DNA of 64,000 nucleotides from Narcine bancroftii (Eukaryota). Below are positions 40,941 through 64,000 of the stretch, in pieces. The stretch is taken from contig NC_091470.1 in the NCBI RefSeq assembly GCF_036971445.1, forward strand, positions 65,348,001 through 65,412,000, read 5' to 3'. The translations under genes were made by a program, and so were the position numbers. The notes below the pieces were generated by a model, which was not told the origin of the DNA, made no database searches, and saw only the letters and a program-made list of their open reading frames with translations. The first letter of the stretch is position 1. The number at the start of each line of letters is the position of its first letter.

Positions 40941-41389
40941 TGTCTATTTCATTTTGCTTTTGATTTGATGGTTTGAAACATTCACTTAATATGGGCTTGT
41001 ATCATTCAGCCCAAAAGGATGCTGAACTGATAACCAAAAGAGGGAAGATAAAGTAGGAATATGGTACAATGGTGGTTTTATTTCCTCTAATTTTATCCAC
41101 TCATAAAATGTGTGATACCTTTATGTCAGTGTTCGAAAAACTTTCTAATTGCCTTTCAGAAGATAAAGAAATCGCTATCCTTGTCTTCAGTACTTGTGGT
41201 GAAGGCACTCTCACTACACTGTTTGGTAGTGACTTCTAAAACTTCAACCCAGCCTAAAATGAGGCATGGACATACATTTCAAATTTAGAAATGTGTAAAA
41301 TTTGGAGGTGACCAAACAATTGCAGTTCTTGTCTTAATTGGGGATAGATGTGCTGAGTTTGCTGGATATTGTCAAAGAAGTCTTTCCAA

Positions 41390-42757
41390 GTTTGACGTCT
41401 GTGGTAGGTAAATTAATGGAGATAGTACTTATAAACATCTGGATAGACAGGGTCTGATCAGGAGCACTCAACATGGATTTGTGGGAGGAAGGTCATGTTT
41501 GACCAATCTGATTGAATTTTTTGAAGAGGTGACTAAGAATGTGGATGAGGGTAGCGCAATGGATGTTGTCTATATGGACTTCAGTAAGGCCTTCGATAAG
41601 GTACCGCATGGAAGGTTAGTTAGGAAGGTGCAGTCTTTAGGTATAAATTTTGAGATAGTCAAATGGATTGAACATTGGCTGAAAGGGAGAGGCCAGAGAG
41701 TGGTAGTGGATAATTGTCTGTCAGGTTGGAGGCCAGTGACCAGTGGTGTGCCTCAAGGATCTGTATTGGGCCAATTGTTGTTCGTTATATACATTAATGA
41801 TCTAGATGATGGGGTGGTGAATTGGATTAGTAAATATGCAGACGATACTAAGATAGGTGGAATAGTGGATAATGAAGAAGATTTTCAAGGATTGCAGAGG
41901 GATTTGGGCTGCTTAGAAAAGTGGGCTGAAAAATGGCAGATGGAATTTAATGCTGATAAGTGTGAGGTGCTTCATTTTGGTAAGAAGAATCAGAACAGGA
42001 CATACGTGGTAAATGGGAGAGCATTGATGAATACAGAAGAGCAGAAAGATTTAGGAGTAACGGTACATCGTTCCCTGAAGGTAGAAACTCACGTGAATAG
42101 GGTGGTGAAGAAGGCTTTTAGTATGCTGGCCTTTATCAATCATTGCATGGAATATAGGAGTTGGGAAGTGATGTTGAGATTGTATAAGACGTTGGTGCGG
42201 CCTAATTTGGAGTTCTGTGTGCAGTTCTGGTCGCCTAATTATAGGAAGGATATAAACAGAGTGGAGAGAGTGCAGAGAAGGTTTACCAGAATGTTACCTG
42301 GGTTTAAGCATCTAGAGTATAGGGAGAGATTGGACAGATTAGGTCTTTATTCTTTGGAGCGTAGAAGGTTGAGAGGGGATTTGATAGAAGTATTTAAGAT
42401 TATGAAAGGGATAGACAGAGTGGATGTGGATAGACTATTTCCGTTAAGAGGAGGAAAGATTAAAACAAGAGGACATGAGTTAAGAATTAAGGGGCAGAGG
42501 TTTAGAGGTAACATGAGGGGGAACTTCTTTACTCAGAGAGTGGTAGTCGTGTGGAATGAGCTTCCGGGAGAAATAGTGGCGGCGGAGTCAATTGTATTAT
42601 TTAAGAAAAGGTCGGACAGGTATATGGATGAGAAGAAGATGGAGGGTTATGGGCATTGTGCAGGGAGGTGGGACTAGAGAGGGGTGTTTGGTTCGGTGCG
42701 GACTAGAAGGACCTAATGGCCTGTTTCCGTGCTGTAATTGTTATGTTATGTTATGTT
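41390..42757 (+). mobile_element. Young CR1 LINE, 5'-truncated, uninterrupted RT ORF (41481-42677)
   Basis: DFSKAFDKVPH, GVPQGSVLG, YADDTK, CVQFWSP motifs and a (tgtta)n tail. No endonuclease domain is present. Confidence 0.95.
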
Positions 42758-43399
42758 AAGTTGCTCCTAATCATTAAAGACACAGAGAATTGCTTCAAAA
42801 TTAAACAGCTGAAAATGTTTTCGTATGTTTTCAATCATGTGTACTGTTCTATCATGGATGAAGCCAAGTTTCTTTGGTGCTTTTGGACTTGAAGTCAACC
42901 AGGGAAGTGGAGTACAGGTGATTAGAGCTGTAATTATCAGGCAAATGATGAACATTGCTTTTGCAGTGTTGACTTCTACATTGGAAACAGGGAAAAAGCT
43001 CTGCCAAATCAGCAGCAGAATCTCTCATAAAAAGAGCAATAGAAGGAGTACTCCTGCAACCATAGTAAATTAGTCTTAAGGTCATCGTCTGGTCAAATCT
43101 AACATACAGAATTGTTATGGTTGAGGATAATGTAACTTGCCAGCAACGATCTAAGTCTCATAGCATTCTCAGAGCTGTGAAAGTGTTGAAATGGATCCTC
43201 TACTAAAGAGCAATTAACTGCACCTTACAACATAATTAGAGAAAATAATATTCCATCTACTCCTCCTCCTGTCATGATGCTATAGGGTTTGTCAGTCTCC
43301 AGGATGAGGAAAGGCATAATCTCTCGGATGATGTGGATGATGATTCAAAGACGGTCCATTCAGATTATCTCAGGATGGAGCATTGTCTAACAAGGAAAG

Positions 43400-56854: not shown

Positions 56855-57062
56855 CTCACTGACAAAAGGCAAAGGAGGAAAAACCCAACACCCAACCCCA
56901 ACCAACCAATTTTCCCTTGCAACCGCTGCAATCGTGTCTGCCTGTCCCGCATCGGACTGGTCAGCCACAAACGAGCCTGCAGCTGACGTGGACTTTTTAC
57001 CCCCTCCATAAATCTTCGTCCGCGAAGCCAAGCCAAAGAAGAAAAAAAAAGAAAAAAAAAAG
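56855..57062 (+). mobile_element. Short RTE 3' end
   Basis: Same family as the 51 kb and 58 kb copies; A/G-rich tail; flanking repeat attgtt. Confidence 0.85.
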
Positions 57063-57548: not shown

Positions 57549-57826
57549 ATAAATAACAATGAACCACTGACGATGGGGTGCTTCATTGCCATTGTTGTAC
57601 AAAGTGACATCTAAACAAGTGTTGGACAATGTCAAAATAAGTACTGTGTGCCATCACTACCCATGCTCTTCAACCTCACTCATCACATGCATGGAAGATC
57701 TGAAACTAATTTCTCATTGATCAACAGATGGTGAAATTCAGAGCAAATCGTAAAAACATTCAGAATACTAACATATTTTATTCCAGTATATAACATTAAT
57801 ATATAGCTGCAAATTATAACTAATTT

Positions 57827-58720
57827 CAGTTTTCTTCAGTTTTCCATCAGCCAGCTCCCCACCATGACTACCAGCCCCCCCACATCTCCATCGGGCACAC
57901 AAAACTCAAAACGGTCGACCAGTTTACCTATCTCGGCTGCACCATTTCATCAGATGCAAGGATCGACAATGAGATAGACAACAGACTCGCCAGGGCAGGT
58001 AGCGCCTTTGGAAGACTACATGGGAGAGTCTGGAGGGACAACCAACTGAAAAACCTCACAGAGATAAGTGTATACAGAGCCGTTGTCATACCCACACTCC
58101 TGTTCGGCTCCGAATCATGGGTCCTCTACCGGCACCACCTACGGCTCCTAGAACGCTTCCACCAGCGTTGTCTCCGCTCCATCCTCAACATCCATTGGAG
58201 CGCTTTCATCCCTAACGTCGAAGTGCTCGAGATGGCAGAGGTCGACAGCATCGAGTCCACGCTGCTGAAGATCCAGCTGCGCTGGATGGGTCACGTCTCC
58301 AGAATGGAGGACCATCGCCTTCCCAAGATCATGTTATATGGCGAGCTCTCCACTGGCCACCGTGACAGAGGTGCACCAAAGAAAAGGTACAAGGACTGCC
58401 TAAAGAAATCTCTTGGTGCCTGCCACATTGACCACCGCCAGTGGGCTGATAACGCCTCAAACCGTGCATCTTGGCACCTCACAGTTTGGCGGGCAGCAAC
58501 CTCCTTTGAAGAAGACCGCAGAGCCCACCTCACTGACAAAAGGCAAAGGAGGAAAAACCCAACACCCAACCCCAACCAACCAATTTTCCCCTGCAACCGC
58601 TGCAACCGTGTCTGCCTGTCCCGCATCGGACTTGTCAGCCACAAACGAGCCTGCAGCTGATGTGGACTTTTTTACCCCCTCCATAAATCTTCGTCCACGA
58701 AGCCAAGCCAAAGAAAAAGA
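57827..58720 (+). mobile_element. RTE-clade LINE, 5'-truncated
   Basis: FTYLGCTIS...LRWMGHVSRM...SHKRACS, with 11-bp TSD ataactaattt (57816-57826, 58721-58731). Confidence 0.93.
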
Positions 58721-60969
58721 ATAACTAATTTATTAAGCCAACACGATGATGTGATTGTAAAGTTGTGGAATATAATGGAATAACATCCTCGATGAAACGC
58801 AGCACCAAACTCTTTCAAGAAACAGCCTTCTCTGAGTTCTACCTGAAATATAACTCTATTCTAGTTGCTCCATTCACATCTAATTCATCACAATTCAAAG
58901 TCAAATTGTACACCTGTGCCTAATTTTGCTTCATTTCATGTTTCCATTAAGTTTGCTTAGTCTATTTGATCAGGAGCTGGTGCTTGTTCCTCATTTTGAA
59001 GACAAATACGGTCACAAAAATGGTCCCACCATCAGCAATATTTCCTGCATATATCTTCAAATTGCCATTTTCAAAGTACTCTCACTGATAGAGGAGATGG
59101 CAGGCAGTGGAATCATTTAAACTATTGACTGAAAAATTCTTTGACAGACCCAAAAATGCTGTCAAAATTCTTATTTATTCTGCTCCGAAACTATTTGAAC
59201 AGTGCAATCATTTATTATATTTTATGATGGAATTCAAAGATATCAAAAGTGAGAATAGAATGGTGACATGGCTGTTAGTTAGATAGATGCTTAATAAGTT
59301 ATTAGCAAAGCACCAGTGAACGTTTTGAGAAATGGCAAAAAGAAATAAAGTCTGTGTGTAGTATAAATCTAGAAGGTGACCTTCAAGTTTATTATTTAGA
59401 ATGGTACTACCTTCAATCTAAAAGAAGCTACCTGCAAATCTATATCAATATTTGTATTCGACTTGAAAGTAGAAGTTTAATAAGATAATCGACTCATGAG
59501 ACAACTATCTTGGGGCAAACCAACAATCAAATTGCAGAGGCAGTTCAATCCAATTGACTATAAAATAATGCAGATAGGCATATTGAACAGTAAGATGAAG
59601 CAAAAGGCAAAGGTGGATCTGGAAATAGATGGATACTAAATTGGAATTTCAAGCCACTGGCTTGACACTGAGACATTGGGTGTGATATATATTTTTCTAA
59701 CTTTGTACATAGCAATTGTCAGATACTGTCTAAAGCAACCATTCTCAAAGAGGGCCCTACGCCTCTCAGGGGCCACAGCAGATTTAGCGAGACAAGATGG
59801 CCACGCAACTATGGTCGCAGCAGCAGCCACTCTGGGATTCCAGGACTGCTGTAACTAACATGTAGGCGCATTGTGCACAAACTTGGATGTAACAAGACTT
59901 TTCAATGGAATGCAGTGAGTCTGGAACTGCAACTTTGGTCATCAAACAACGAGTGCGTTGCTGAGACGAAGCCACATGATTTGAAGCTCGATGGTTGTGG
60001 AATGAGGCCAACTGAAGAGGCCGAGTTGTGGCATAAAACGACACTGTGGACCCGATGGTGCCTGCTTCGATGGTCATGGAAATGGTGCAATGTGGTGAAG
60101 ATAGAGGTGGTGTCCCAATACGGCCAGTGTGGTGGATCAATGTTATCCCCGAGAAATCCCAAAGGATGTGTTGGTCGTGGTCAATGTCAACCTGAGGCGT
60201 GAGGCCTCATGGCGTTTGGATTGTCTGAGGTTGGGGGGCTTTGGGGTGAACTGTTGCTCTGTTGGTAGTTTACCTTTTGAAGCTGGCAGACGGTAACATC
60301 CAAGTACTGTCGACACTGGTAAACTAGCCCTAAGATGGCTGGGGTTGGACTTTTTGTAACATCCAAACAGAATTGCAACCGAGCTTTTTTGTGTTCACTG
60401 CCTGTTCTTTGAAGTCTGGTGTTTGTAGCACTGTTGTTCATTTGAAATTGGGAAGTTATTCATTGCTGTGATCGGGAGGAACGGGTTAGGGTTTAAATAA
60501 TTAATGCTCTAAGTGGGATAGTCTACATTAAAAGATGACTGTGCCGGTATATTTTGGCTGCCTGTCATCGTTTAGATAGTAACTAATTTATTCCTAATTG
60601 TATGTTCAGCGCTTATTGTTATAAAGAGGGAATGAGTTGAATAAGCAAAAGAGAACAGTTACAGGAGTACAAAAGGGCTGGAGGATAAAAGTATGAAGGA
60701 AGATGCACAGAAATTACATTTATTGCATATGCAAACACTGAAGGATAATATGTTTGAGATTAACAAATGAATAACATTTGAAGATGTTCATGGTCTGTCA
60801 ATGTTGTTTGTACTTTATGACAAAAGATAGAAGGGATATGAATATAATAGATAAGGGGGCTGTTTCTGATTTGAAAAACAGAACAAATATTGAGATGTTG
60901 GTCAATTTTAAGTAGGATTCTTATGGTGGGTTGCAAACTCATTTCATTTAAGTTCCTTTTGTTGAATTT

Positions 60970-62378: not shown

Positions 62379-64000
62379 ACCTACTCTATGAAAAAAACTA
62401 ACCAAAATGAAACAACTGAGCAGTTTATCAGAGGGTTATATAGATTTGGTAGCTTTTGATTCATACCGTGAATCAAAAAACAAAGGTAAGACTATATCTC
62501 ATCTGGAAGAGTGAGTACATCAAATCACATTGAAAAAAACATTTACATCAAATGAAAATAAGACATAAAAGGTCGCCATATATCTTCATATTTCACCAAT
62601 GAGTCAAATACATGATATCTCATTTTTTTTCTAAACTTAAAAAGGACATCATATGAGAGAACCATTGGAAAGGTCTAAAGCCTTTCCATTTGAATAGGAA
62701 AGCCAACAATGTAGAGAAGGCCACAACCTATGTCTGGTTCTTTCTTTTCTTTTTCTTCTTTCTTTGGCTTGGCTTCGCGGACAAAGATTTATGGAGGGGT
62801 AATGTCCACATCAGCTGCAGGCTCGTTTGTGGCTGACAAGTCTGATGCGGGACAGGCAGACACGGTTGCAGCAGTTGCAAGGGAAAATTGGTTGGTTGGG
62901 GTTGGGTGTTGGGTTTTTCCTCCTTTGTCTTTTGTCAGTGAAGTGGGCTCTGCGGTCTTCTTCAAAGGAGGTTGCTGCCCGCCAAACTGTGAGGTGCCAA
63001 GATGCACGGTTTGAGGCGATATCAGCCCACTGGCGGTGGTCAATGTGGCAGGCACCAAGAGAATTCTTTAGGCAGTCCTTGTACCTCTTCTTTGGTGCAC
63101 CTCTGTCATGGTGGCCAGTGGAGAGCTCGCCATATAACACGATCTTGGGAAGGCGATGGTCCTCCACTCTGGAGACGTGACCTACCCAGCGCAGTTGGAT
63201 CTTCAGCAGCGTGGATTCGATGCTGTCGGCCTCTGCCATCTCGAGTACTTCGATGTTAGGGATGAAGTCACTCCAATGAATGTTGAGGATGGAGCGGAGA
63301 CAACGCTGGTGGAAGCGTTCTAGGAGCCGAAGGTGATGCCGGTAGAGGACCCGTGATTCGGAGCCGAACAGGAGTGTGGATATGACAACGGCTCTGTATA
63401 CGCTAATCTCGCCAAGGCAAATAGCGCCTTTGGAAGACTACGCAAAAGAGTCTGGAAAAACAACCAACTGAAACACCTCACAAAGATTAGCGTATAGAGA
63501 GCCGATGTCTGGTTCAATAACCCCAAAAAGAGCAATTATTAGATTGGGTTGTAAATTCATCTGAAATTCAGTTGAAAAGATATTAAAAATTTATTTCCAA
63601 TGGATTTCTATGGATGGACAAGACCAAAACATGTGTCAATGTAACAATATCAGATTTGCATCTGTCTCAAGTCTGGTTAATATTAGAAAAGATACAATCC
63701 ATCTTATCTTTGGACAAGTGAACATGATTCACCACTTTGAATTGGATTAATGAATGTCGTGCACAAACAGAAAACGCATTCACCGGTTTAAGAATCTTGT
63801 CCCATAGGTCCTCCAATAAGGGTCATGCAAGTTCCAATTCTCCAACCCTTTTTAATCTTATCATAAAGTACTGGATGTAATTTTAATAATCTATCATATA
63901 CAATTCCAAATAATCCTTTCTGAGAAGAATTCAATTGAAAAATATTATCAACTAGATCTGGTGGATATACAAATGGAAAGTCCGGTAATATGGCTTTTTT
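62040..64000 (-). mobile_element. Old L1/Tx1-type LINE ORF2 C-terminus/3' UTR, interrupted by an RTE
   Basis: Minus-strand SVCARHSLIQFKV...HLSKDK motif near 63690-63770; (CA)n at 62338-62376 lies in the 3' region. Confidence 0.6.
62741..63504 (-). mobile_element. RTE-clade LINE with short 5' inversion
   Basis: Minus-strand body 62741-63409, plus-strand piece 63408-63504, 11-bp TSD atgtctggttc (62730-62740, 63505-63515). Confidence 0.9.

What the first reader, a model, noticed from the sequence alone, without database searches (positions are those of the whole stretch)
57917..58061. Dense sense-strand A-to-G cluster in one RTE copy: possible genomic fossil of ADAR hyper-editing
Seen: compared with the sister copy at 51.0-51.8 kb, this copy has G instead of A at 11 positions in 145 bp (57917, 57993, 57998, 57999, 58022-58024, 58035-58037, 58061). 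The copy at 63408-63504 also has A at the 10 of these sites it covers. Examples are caaggcaaat->cagggcaggt and tggaaaaaca->tggagggaca. Only a few other changes occur nearby, and two more A>G changes lie at 58217 and 58225. No changed A had a 5' G in the ancestral state, and the first A after GG is spared. Known: ADAR converts A to I in dsRNA, disfavours a 5' G, and reverse transcriptase reads I as G; CpG decay and APOBEC editing give different spectra. Inference: the template RNA was hyper-edited before retrotransposition, recording a host dsRNA-editing response against this RTE in the germline.
Basis: partly seen in the sequence, partly recalled or inferred. Interest (0 to 1): 0.8.

Follow-up and report, generated by a model that had tools for sequence, protein, structure and literature searches.

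The report
RNA-editing scars in retrotransposon DNA copies
This jumping-gene copy, and about twenty others in the same genome, carry dense one-way A-to-G changes on the strand that was once RNA, likely because the host's RNA-editing enzyme ADAR altered the RNA before it was copied into the germline, which would make RNA editing a heritable source of mutation in these elements.

Summary
Observation confirmed: 11 A>G in 145 bp of a young, 5'-truncated RTE-type LINE copy (12 with 58225; 58217 is an ordinary subfamily variant). The G tract is unique in the genome, against 49,583 copies with A.

It is not a one-off. Genome searches found 19 more independent copies with 6-42 nearly pure sense-strand A>G changes (381 A>G against 26 other changes in 19 pooled copies), with ADAR-type neighbours (5' T/A > C > G). 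Three T>C control searches found only 2 copies.

One twin-primed copy is edited in both arms, on opposite DNA strands. The 26 nt copied twice carry the same edit in both arms, which points to the RNA template. Edited copies are truncated earlier, and their last ~120 nt are largely spared.

Best reading (0.87): ADAR-type hyper-editing of duplexed RTE RNA before target-primed reverse transcription. Not shown: the Gs in raw reads (check inconclusive), the enzyme, the duplex partner, or a defensive role. Ten literature searches found no report for germline non-LTR copies. This scan noted one similar L1 copy in another genome (e1-8045548, unchecked).

The parts
57816..57826 (+). 5' copy of an 11-bp target-site duplication
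   Evidence: Identical 11-mer at 58721-58731; its As are unchanged in both copies
57827..57839 (-). 13-nt inverted piece of the element just upstream of the truncation point (short 5' inversion, twin-priming type); its 6 RNA-sense As are not changed
   Evidence: Reverse complement matches the element immediately upstream of the junction
57843..58720 (+). 5'-truncated RTE-type LINE copy: last ~270 codons of the ORF (stop 58658-58660), short 3' UTR and A/G-rich tail
   Evidence: 96-97% identical to family copies; long natural copy L058 has a 1144-aa endonuclease + RT ORF
57917..58061 (+). Hypermutated tract: A>G at 57917, 57993, 57998, 57999, 58022-24, 58035-37, 58061; all fall in codons that change (N>D, K>R, N>G, K>G, K>R, N>D, K>E)
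58021..58022 (+). C>T at a CpG that exists only after the 58022 A>G; likely later methyl-CpG decay in DNA (single case, weak)
   Evidence: C in 82 of 83 sample copies; 1 of 92 edited As after C shows this; T also seen in 4 of 29 copies picked for likeness
58225..58225 (+). Isolated A>G, possible 12th edit (silent)
   Evidence: G in 3 of 87 sample copies; also G in hypermutants L034 and L050
51004..51827 (-). Unedited sister copy, other subfamily
   Evidence: 0 private A>G, 0 T>C among 9 private changes
56855..57049 (+). Short unedited 3' fragment of the same family
62750..63509 (.). Unedited twin-primed sister: 3' arm 62750-63410 on minus, inverted arm 63408-63509 on plus, about 27 nt copied twice

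Best explanation
The copy carries a private, sense-strand cluster of A-to-G changes that was likely made by ADAR-type adenosine deamination of the element's RNA while it was likely paired with an antisense partner, and was then likely fixed in germline DNA when reverse transcriptase read inosine as G during target-primed reverse transcription. Shown: the cluster, its privacy, 19 further independent copies, strand bias, neighbour preference, the doubly copied edit in L173, earlier truncation, and the largely spared 3' end. Inferred: that the enzyme is an ADAR; that the partner strand came from antisense transcripts of other family copies or from an inverted neighbour of the source locus (the element has no long hairpin of its own); that the last ~120 nt were shielded by the element's protein or had to stay intact to be recognised; and that duplex, inosine or cleavage stopped reverse transcription early.
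For: (1) Forcing two adjacent A>G at four anchors gave 7, 7, 11 and 3 hits. These are 19 distinct hypermutants, a 3-copy group sharing 4 A>G, and 2 older copies with mixed changes (L044, L172); L014 came.
(2) 19 pooled copies: 381 A>G (36 forced by the patterns), 1 T>C and 25 other changes in 12,309 bp. Ordinary copies are symmetric: A>G 2.28 against T>C 1.91 per 1000, P=0.43.
(3) Per-site editing by 5' neighbour: T 0.37, A 0.33, C 0.16, G 0.07 (5' G lower, P<1e-4). By 3' neighbour: G 0.26, A 0.23, C 0.18, T 0.14 (G higher, P=0.03). This matches the depletion of G upstream and enrichment downstream in PMC4365171.
(4) Hits lie on both genomic strands, yet are A>G in RNA sense.
(5) L173: 12 A>G in the minus-strand arm and 10 in the plus-strand inverted arm, both in RNA sense. 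The 26-nt overlap has G at the 58114-equivalent in both arms, where 85 of 85 sample copies have A.
(6) 13 of 19 hypermutants have no inverted family copy over the edited tract within 10 kb.
(7) Clear target-site duplications in the target and several others.
Against: The G tract was not seen as a contig in the best DNA run, although both junctions were. The T>C control is not empty: 2 copies with 8 T>C each (L137, L138). The 3'-G preference is modest and not significant when counted per base (P=0.26). The doubly copied edit is one site in one copy. The duplex partner is not identified. ADAR genes and expression in this germline were not examined. In a human cell assay L1 RNA was not edited by over-expressed ADAR1 (PMC5224506). 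The spared 3' zone is not absolute: L173 has 3 edits at 58637-58645 equivalents.
Confidence: 0.87

Rival explanations
1. An error-prone polymerase wrote the changes during insertion: G opposite template T in second-strand synthesis (pol eta/iota type), or C opposite A by the element's RT under a skewed nucleotide pool. This would also be sense-strand specific.
For: Strand bias and preference for A after A or T fit; the WA preference of pol eta is recalled and appears in the search listing only.
Against: A>T 2 and A>C 0 against 381 A>G, where such polymerases give mixed A changes (recalled). Up to about half of the As in a tract are changed. 5' C is edited twice as often as 5' G (P=0.0008). The same change appears in both separately made copies of the L173 overlap. 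The last ~120 nt are spared (1 of 238 against 17 of 136 upstream).
Confidence: 0.05
2. The changes came after insertion: a host transcript pairs this copy with a nearby inverted copy, is edited and is written back by RNA-templated repair, or ADAR deaminates the DNA strand of an RNA:DNA hybrid at the locus.
For: The target has inverted sisters 4-6 kb away. ADAR can deaminate dA in hybrids in vitro (PMC5389660). It may explain the T>C minority: L138 is one arm of an inverted pair 690 bp apart.
Against: It predicts equal A>G and T>C, but 19 against 2 were found. 13 of 19 hypermutants lack an inverted partner over the tract within 10 kb, and neighbouring copies carry 0-2 such changes. The two arms of L173 are changed on opposite DNA strands.
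Confidence: 0.04
3. The Gs are sequencing or assembly artefacts.
For: No contig of 60 bp or more over the tract was listed for DNA run X1. Systematic base-calling errors can mimic editing clusters (PMC2873906, there G-to-A in Sanger traces).
Against: An artefact has no access to the element's RNA sense, yet hits on both strands are A>G in sense. Three separate insertions share four of the changes. The run's contigs drop rare variants inside a very deep repeat, by the tool's own statement.
Confidence: 0.03
4. The Gs are ordinary subfamily variants or chance point mutations.
For: 58217 and most other differences from the window sisters are subfamily variants.
Against: The tract is unique in the genome; chance P about 2e-14; the hypermutants have different edited sites and sit on several subfamily backgrounds.
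Confidence: 0.01

Closest known systems
ADAR hyper-editing of long dsRNA from repeats (Porath et al. 2014, PMC4365171; Zaranek et al. 2010, PMC2873906; passages read)
   Same: Dense, pure A>G clusters; G depleted upstream, enriched downstream; repeats as substrate.
   Different: There the changes exist only in RNA; here they are in assembled chromosomal DNA with target-site duplications.
A-to-G hypermutated avian retroviruses, RAV and ALV (Hajjar and Linial 1995; Felder et al. 1994; seen only through passages of the review PMC12925331)
   Same: Edited RNA template reverse transcribed into DNA, up to about half of the As changed.
   Different: Retroviruses, with edits in U3 and an inverted-repeat region; here germline non-LTR insertions, no internal hairpin, many independent events.
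APOBEC3-edited endogenous LTR elements (Knisbacher and Levanon 2016, PMC4866542; passages read)
   Same: Deaminase scars fixed in genomic retroelement copies, found by comparing subfamily members.
   Different: C-to-U on cDNA giving sense G>A in LTR elements; that study set non-LTR elements aside, and the word ADAR does not occur in its main text.
ADAR1 restriction of human LINE-1 (Orecchini et al. 2017, PMC5224506; passages read)
   Same: ADAR acting on a LINE ribonucleoprotein.
   Different: Reported as editing-independent, with no edits in more than 2.5 kb of L1 RNA; here edits are recorded in about 20 insertions.
RTE-clade LINEs (clade features recalled)
   Same: One long ORF with endonuclease and RT, about 3.6 kb, short 3' UTR with short-repeat tail, frequent 5' truncation.
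   Different: Clade placement not tested by a tree; no hit was named RTE by a source.

Membership tests
ADAR hyper-editing cluster | Dense cluster of one change type, A>G in RNA sense | tested here: met
   12 of 15 private changes in the target; 381 of 407 in 19 pooled copies
ADAR hyper-editing cluster | G depleted one base upstream | tested here: met
   Per-site rate 0.07 after G against 0.16-0.37, P<1e-4; target alone P=0.10
ADAR hyper-editing cluster | G enriched one base downstream | tested here: met
   Modest: per site 0.26 against 0.14-0.23, P=0.03; per base P=0.26
ADAR hyper-editing cluster | Long double-stranded RNA substrate | tested here: inconclusive
   No inverted repeat over about 30 nt within the natural long copy, none significant; no partner at most destination sites; a partner in trans or at the source locus could not be tested
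ADAR hyper-editing cluster | Change present in the RNA template | tested here: met
   One case: same edit in both separately primed arms of L173
ADAR hyper-editing cluster | Dependence on ADAR catalytic activity | not testable with these tools
   Needs knock-out or biochemistry
APOBEC-edited retroelement | Sense-strand G>A clusters | tested here: not met
   4 G>A in 12,309 bp of hypermutants
Pol eta/iota-type clustered mutagenesis | Mixed A>G, A>C, A>T at WA sites (recalled) | tested here: not met
   A>T 2, A>C 0, A>G 381
Non-LTR retrotransposon insertion by TPRT | Target-site duplication, 5' truncation or inversion, intact 3' end with tail | tested here: met
RTE clade | Single ORF with apurinic-type endonuclease and RT | tested here: met
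   1144-aa ORF in L058 with PF03372/PF14529 and PF00078
RTE clade | RT phylogeny within the RTE clade | not tested
   No named reference sequences among the 120 listed hits; label rests on architecture and recall

The most novel reading that the evidence does not exclude
ADAR editing is a recurrent, heritable mutagen of a vertebrate LINE. About 1 in 1000 new insertions comes from hyper-edited RNA and is cut short. Lightly edited copies with conservative changes go on to found new lineages (L003, L004 and L041 share four A>G giving H>R, K>R, K>R). The fossils also map the protein-bound or indispensable last ~120 nt of the RNA in vivo. A rarer T>C class would record deamination of the nascent cDNA strand.
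Probability: 0.5. Interest if true: 0.87.

Novelty: new variant of a known kind. Interest (0 to 1): 0.76.

Why it matters
[quoted passage not shown] A family with more than 50,000 young copies gives direct genomic records that edited LINE RNA does reach the germline. The question becomes testable by computation in any genome with a large young family: frequency, strand bias, effect on insertion length, and founding of subfamilies. The records also report on the retrotransposition intermediate itself (which RNA parts are duplexed, which are shielded). The frequency is low, so the effect on the genome as a whole is probably small.

Tried and rejected
Run contigs: 4 of 23 listed runs were laid. 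X1 holds both junctions (57600-57868 and 58695-58950), but no piece of 60 bp or more over the G tract was listed. Contigs drop rare variants, so no verdict. No RNA holder is on record.

Internal hairpin as the ADAR substrate: no significant long inverted repeat in natural copy L058; local folding z-scores ran from +2.1 to -2.9 with 15 shuffles per window.

Write-back from a local inverted neighbour: rejected for most copies (matches of at least 80% and 60 bp within 10 kb; L138 not fetched).

A second family (CR1-like, window 41.4-42.8 kb): the A>G pattern gave 3 hits, all old copies at 70-74% identity with mixed changes; uninformative, and no denominator was measured.

Low-level editing across ordinary copies: no strand bias. 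L044 (6 A>G of 37 changes) and L172 (4 of 51) were dropped from the hypermutant set as older copies with mixed changes.

New-CpG decay as a dating tool: only 1 of 92.

Ten literature searches found no description of ADAR-type scars in germline non-LTR copies. The library lacks most subscription papers, Carmi et al. 2011 (Nat Commun, recalled) was not read, and no supplements were opened. PMC12548423 considered ADAR for mouse provirus Mtv61 but found the context did not fit. Passages of PMC3197674, PMC8466645, PMC2987831 and PMC7827607 held nothing on this point.

Full report
OBSERVATION. The window is G000:C5:65,348,001-65,412,000 of a 3.33 Gb assembly; its repeats look shark- or ray-like to me (recalled, not tested). 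It holds four pieces of one young LINE family. The copy at 57843-58720 differs from the 51 kb sister by A>G at the 11 stated sites, and the 63.4 kb piece has A at the 10 it covers. The copy has an 11-bp target-site duplication, a 13-nt inverted piece at its 5' junction and an intact 3' end. A long natural copy, L058, has one 1144-aa ORF with endonuclease and RT domains, the RTE-type layout; clade placement was not tested by a tree.

PRIVACY AND CHANCE. The G-form 20-mer occurs once in the genome, the A-form 19-mer 49,583 times. I fetched 76 loci around the first places listed (one 4-Mb stretch of C1, picked on that motif, so not a random sample). Against their column-wise commonest letters the target has 12 A>G, 2 C>T and 1 G>A. 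58217 is polymorphic (G in 55 of 86); 58225 is rare (3 of 87). The sample's own single-copy changes are strand-symmetric, A>G 67 in 29,372 As against T>C 38 in 19,948 Ts (P=0.43), and none of its 107 segments is a hypermutant. Eleven changes in 57 As against at most 0.29 expected gives P about 2e-14.

A POPULATION OF SUCH COPIES. I searched the genome for family motifs with two adjacent As forced to G and the other As free. Four anchors gave 7, 7, 11 and 3 hits. All 7 of the first and all 11 of the third set are hypermutants with 6-42 A>G and at most 5 other changes. The second set holds 3 of the first, three separate insertions sharing four A>G (L003, L004, L041), and one older mixed copy (L044, dropped). 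The fourth holds one of the first, one older mixed copy (L172, dropped) and L173. L014 came from the DNA search. That makes 20 independent hypermutants including the target, on several young subfamily backgrounds. Pooled over the 19 known before L173: 381 A>G (36 forced), 1 T>C and 25 other changes in 12,309 bp.

STRAND CONTROL. The same design on T runs gave 0, 0 and 2 hits. Both hits are real T>C clusters, 8 T>C each with 2 forced, on an older background and reaching into the 3' end. With denominators estimated from the samples (about 179,000 and 118,000 copy-sites), 19 against 2 distinct copies gives P about 0.003. The bias is strong but not absolute. By my hand count, a given anchor catches about 2 of 17 hypermutants found elsewhere. 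The per-anchor rate of 1.3e-4 therefore suggests roughly 0.1% of copies, some tens to low hundreds in the genome (rough inference).

SIGNATURE. Taking sites as units (225 sites, forced ones left out), the editing rate by 5' neighbour is T 0.37, A 0.33, C 0.16, G 0.07, and by 3' neighbour G 0.26, A 0.23, C 0.18, T 0.14. 5' G is lower at P<1e-4, 5' C above 5' G at P=0.0008, and 3' G higher at P=0.03. Counted per base the 3' G effect is not significant (P=0.26). PMC4365171 and PMC2873906 give G depletion upstream as the ADAR mark, and PMC4365171 also G enrichment downstream (passages read).

WHERE THE CHANGE WAS MADE. L173 is a twin-primed insertion. Its 3' arm lies on the minus strand with 12 A>G, its inverted 5' arm on the plus strand with 10 A>G, both in RNA sense. 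The arms overlap by 26 nt, and both carry G at the 58114-equivalent, where 85 of 85 sample copies have A; the other two As of the overlap are unchanged in both. Two separately primed cDNAs sharing an edit is what an edited RNA template predicts. It is hard to get from polymerase error or from damage to one DNA strand. It is a single site. Within 10 kb, 13 of 19 hypermutants (target excluded) have no inverted family copy over the edited tract, 3 have one covering most of it and 3 partly; neighbours carry 0-2 A>G or T>C. So editing at the present locus with write-back fails for most. The element has no long internal inverted repeat, so the partner strand is inferred to be antisense RNA in trans or an inverted neighbour at the source locus.

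TWO FURTHER PATTERNS. First, edited copies end sooner. The distance from the anchor to the 5' end of the collinear piece has median 134 nt (n=11) against about 880 (n=30 unedited), P=8e-4, and 193 (n=7) against about 420 (n=84), P=0.018. Stalling at duplex or inosine, or cleavage of edited RNA, are inferred causes. Second, the last ~120 nt are largely spared. For the 3' anchor 1 of 238 As 45-150 nt downstream is edited against 17 of 136 upstream (P=2e-7), while the middle anchor is symmetric (15 of 119 against 23 of 204). L173, found later, has 3 edits in that zone. Shielding by the element's protein or the need for an intact recognition end are inferred. L003, L004 and L041 have different flanks and 5' ends but share A>G at four sites within 16 nt, giving H>R, K>R, K>R. 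This suggests an edited DNA copy that was itself a source.

WHAT FAILED. The best DNA run shows both junctions as contigs, but no long contig over the G tract was listed. This neither confirms nor refutes, since such contigs drop rare variants inside a repeat of this depth. A test on a CR1-like family returned only old copies.

KNOWN AND NEW. It works like ADAR hyper-editing and meets the sequence tests; the enzyme and duplex were not shown. Precedents are A-to-G hypermutated avian retroviruses (through the review PMC12925331) and APOBEC scars in endogenous LTR elements (PMC4866542). PMC4982230 calls the role of ADAR editing in Alu subfamily evolution undetermined. PMC5224506 found no editing of L1 RNA. 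PMC5389660 shows ADAR can act on the DNA strand of hybrids, a possible source of the T>C minority. All papers were seen as passages only, no supplements. Ten searches found no report for germline non-LTR copies, within a library that lacks most subscription papers. An unchecked note of this scan describes one similar L1 copy in another genome; I had reached my reading before seeing it, and it is not counted as evidence.

VERDICT. Real, recurrent, and best explained by ADAR-type editing of the RNA template before insertion (0.87). A defensive function is not shown. New variant of a known kind; interest 0.76.

Noticed in passing
L137 (G000:C9:24.20 Mb) and L138:1384-1561 (G000:C23:59.005 Mb): Two short copies with 8 T>C each in RNA sense, sharing five sites (two forced) but with different flanks and 5' ends. 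L138 has two G>A at CpGs created by the T>C changes and is one arm of an inverted pair 690 bp apart. Possibly deamination of the cDNA strand or an edited antisense template.
   Followed up: partly
L003, L004, L041: Three separate insertions share four A>G in 16 nt, all conservative in the ORF; likely daughters of a lightly edited source copy.
   Followed up: partly
L058:365-3796 (minus): The RT and C-terminal half of the intact ORF is 72-79% identical to proteins from a sea urchin, lancelets, mantis shrimp, prawn and teleost fish, which suggests fairly recent horizontal transfer among aquatic animals.
   Followed up: no
window 62750-63509; L003, L004, L173: Twin-priming-type 5' inversions with short duplications or deletions at the junction are common in this family, a feature I recall mainly from L1.
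   Followed up: partly
window 41388-42764: Young CR1-like LINE copy (421-aa open RT frame at 41412-42674, 97.6% to L130); an older relative lies at 22117-23211.
   Followed up: partly
window 57843 and L034: The target and hypermutant L034 start at exactly the same element position and share G at 58225, but have different flanks, edits and subfamily letters; perhaps a truncation hot spot.
   Followed up: partly
window 57805: A contig of run X1 has G where the assembly has A in the unique flank: another haplotype or individual carrying the same insertion.
   Followed up: no
L057:5302-5792: Tandem array of about 69-bp units at 95-98% identity.
   Followed up: no
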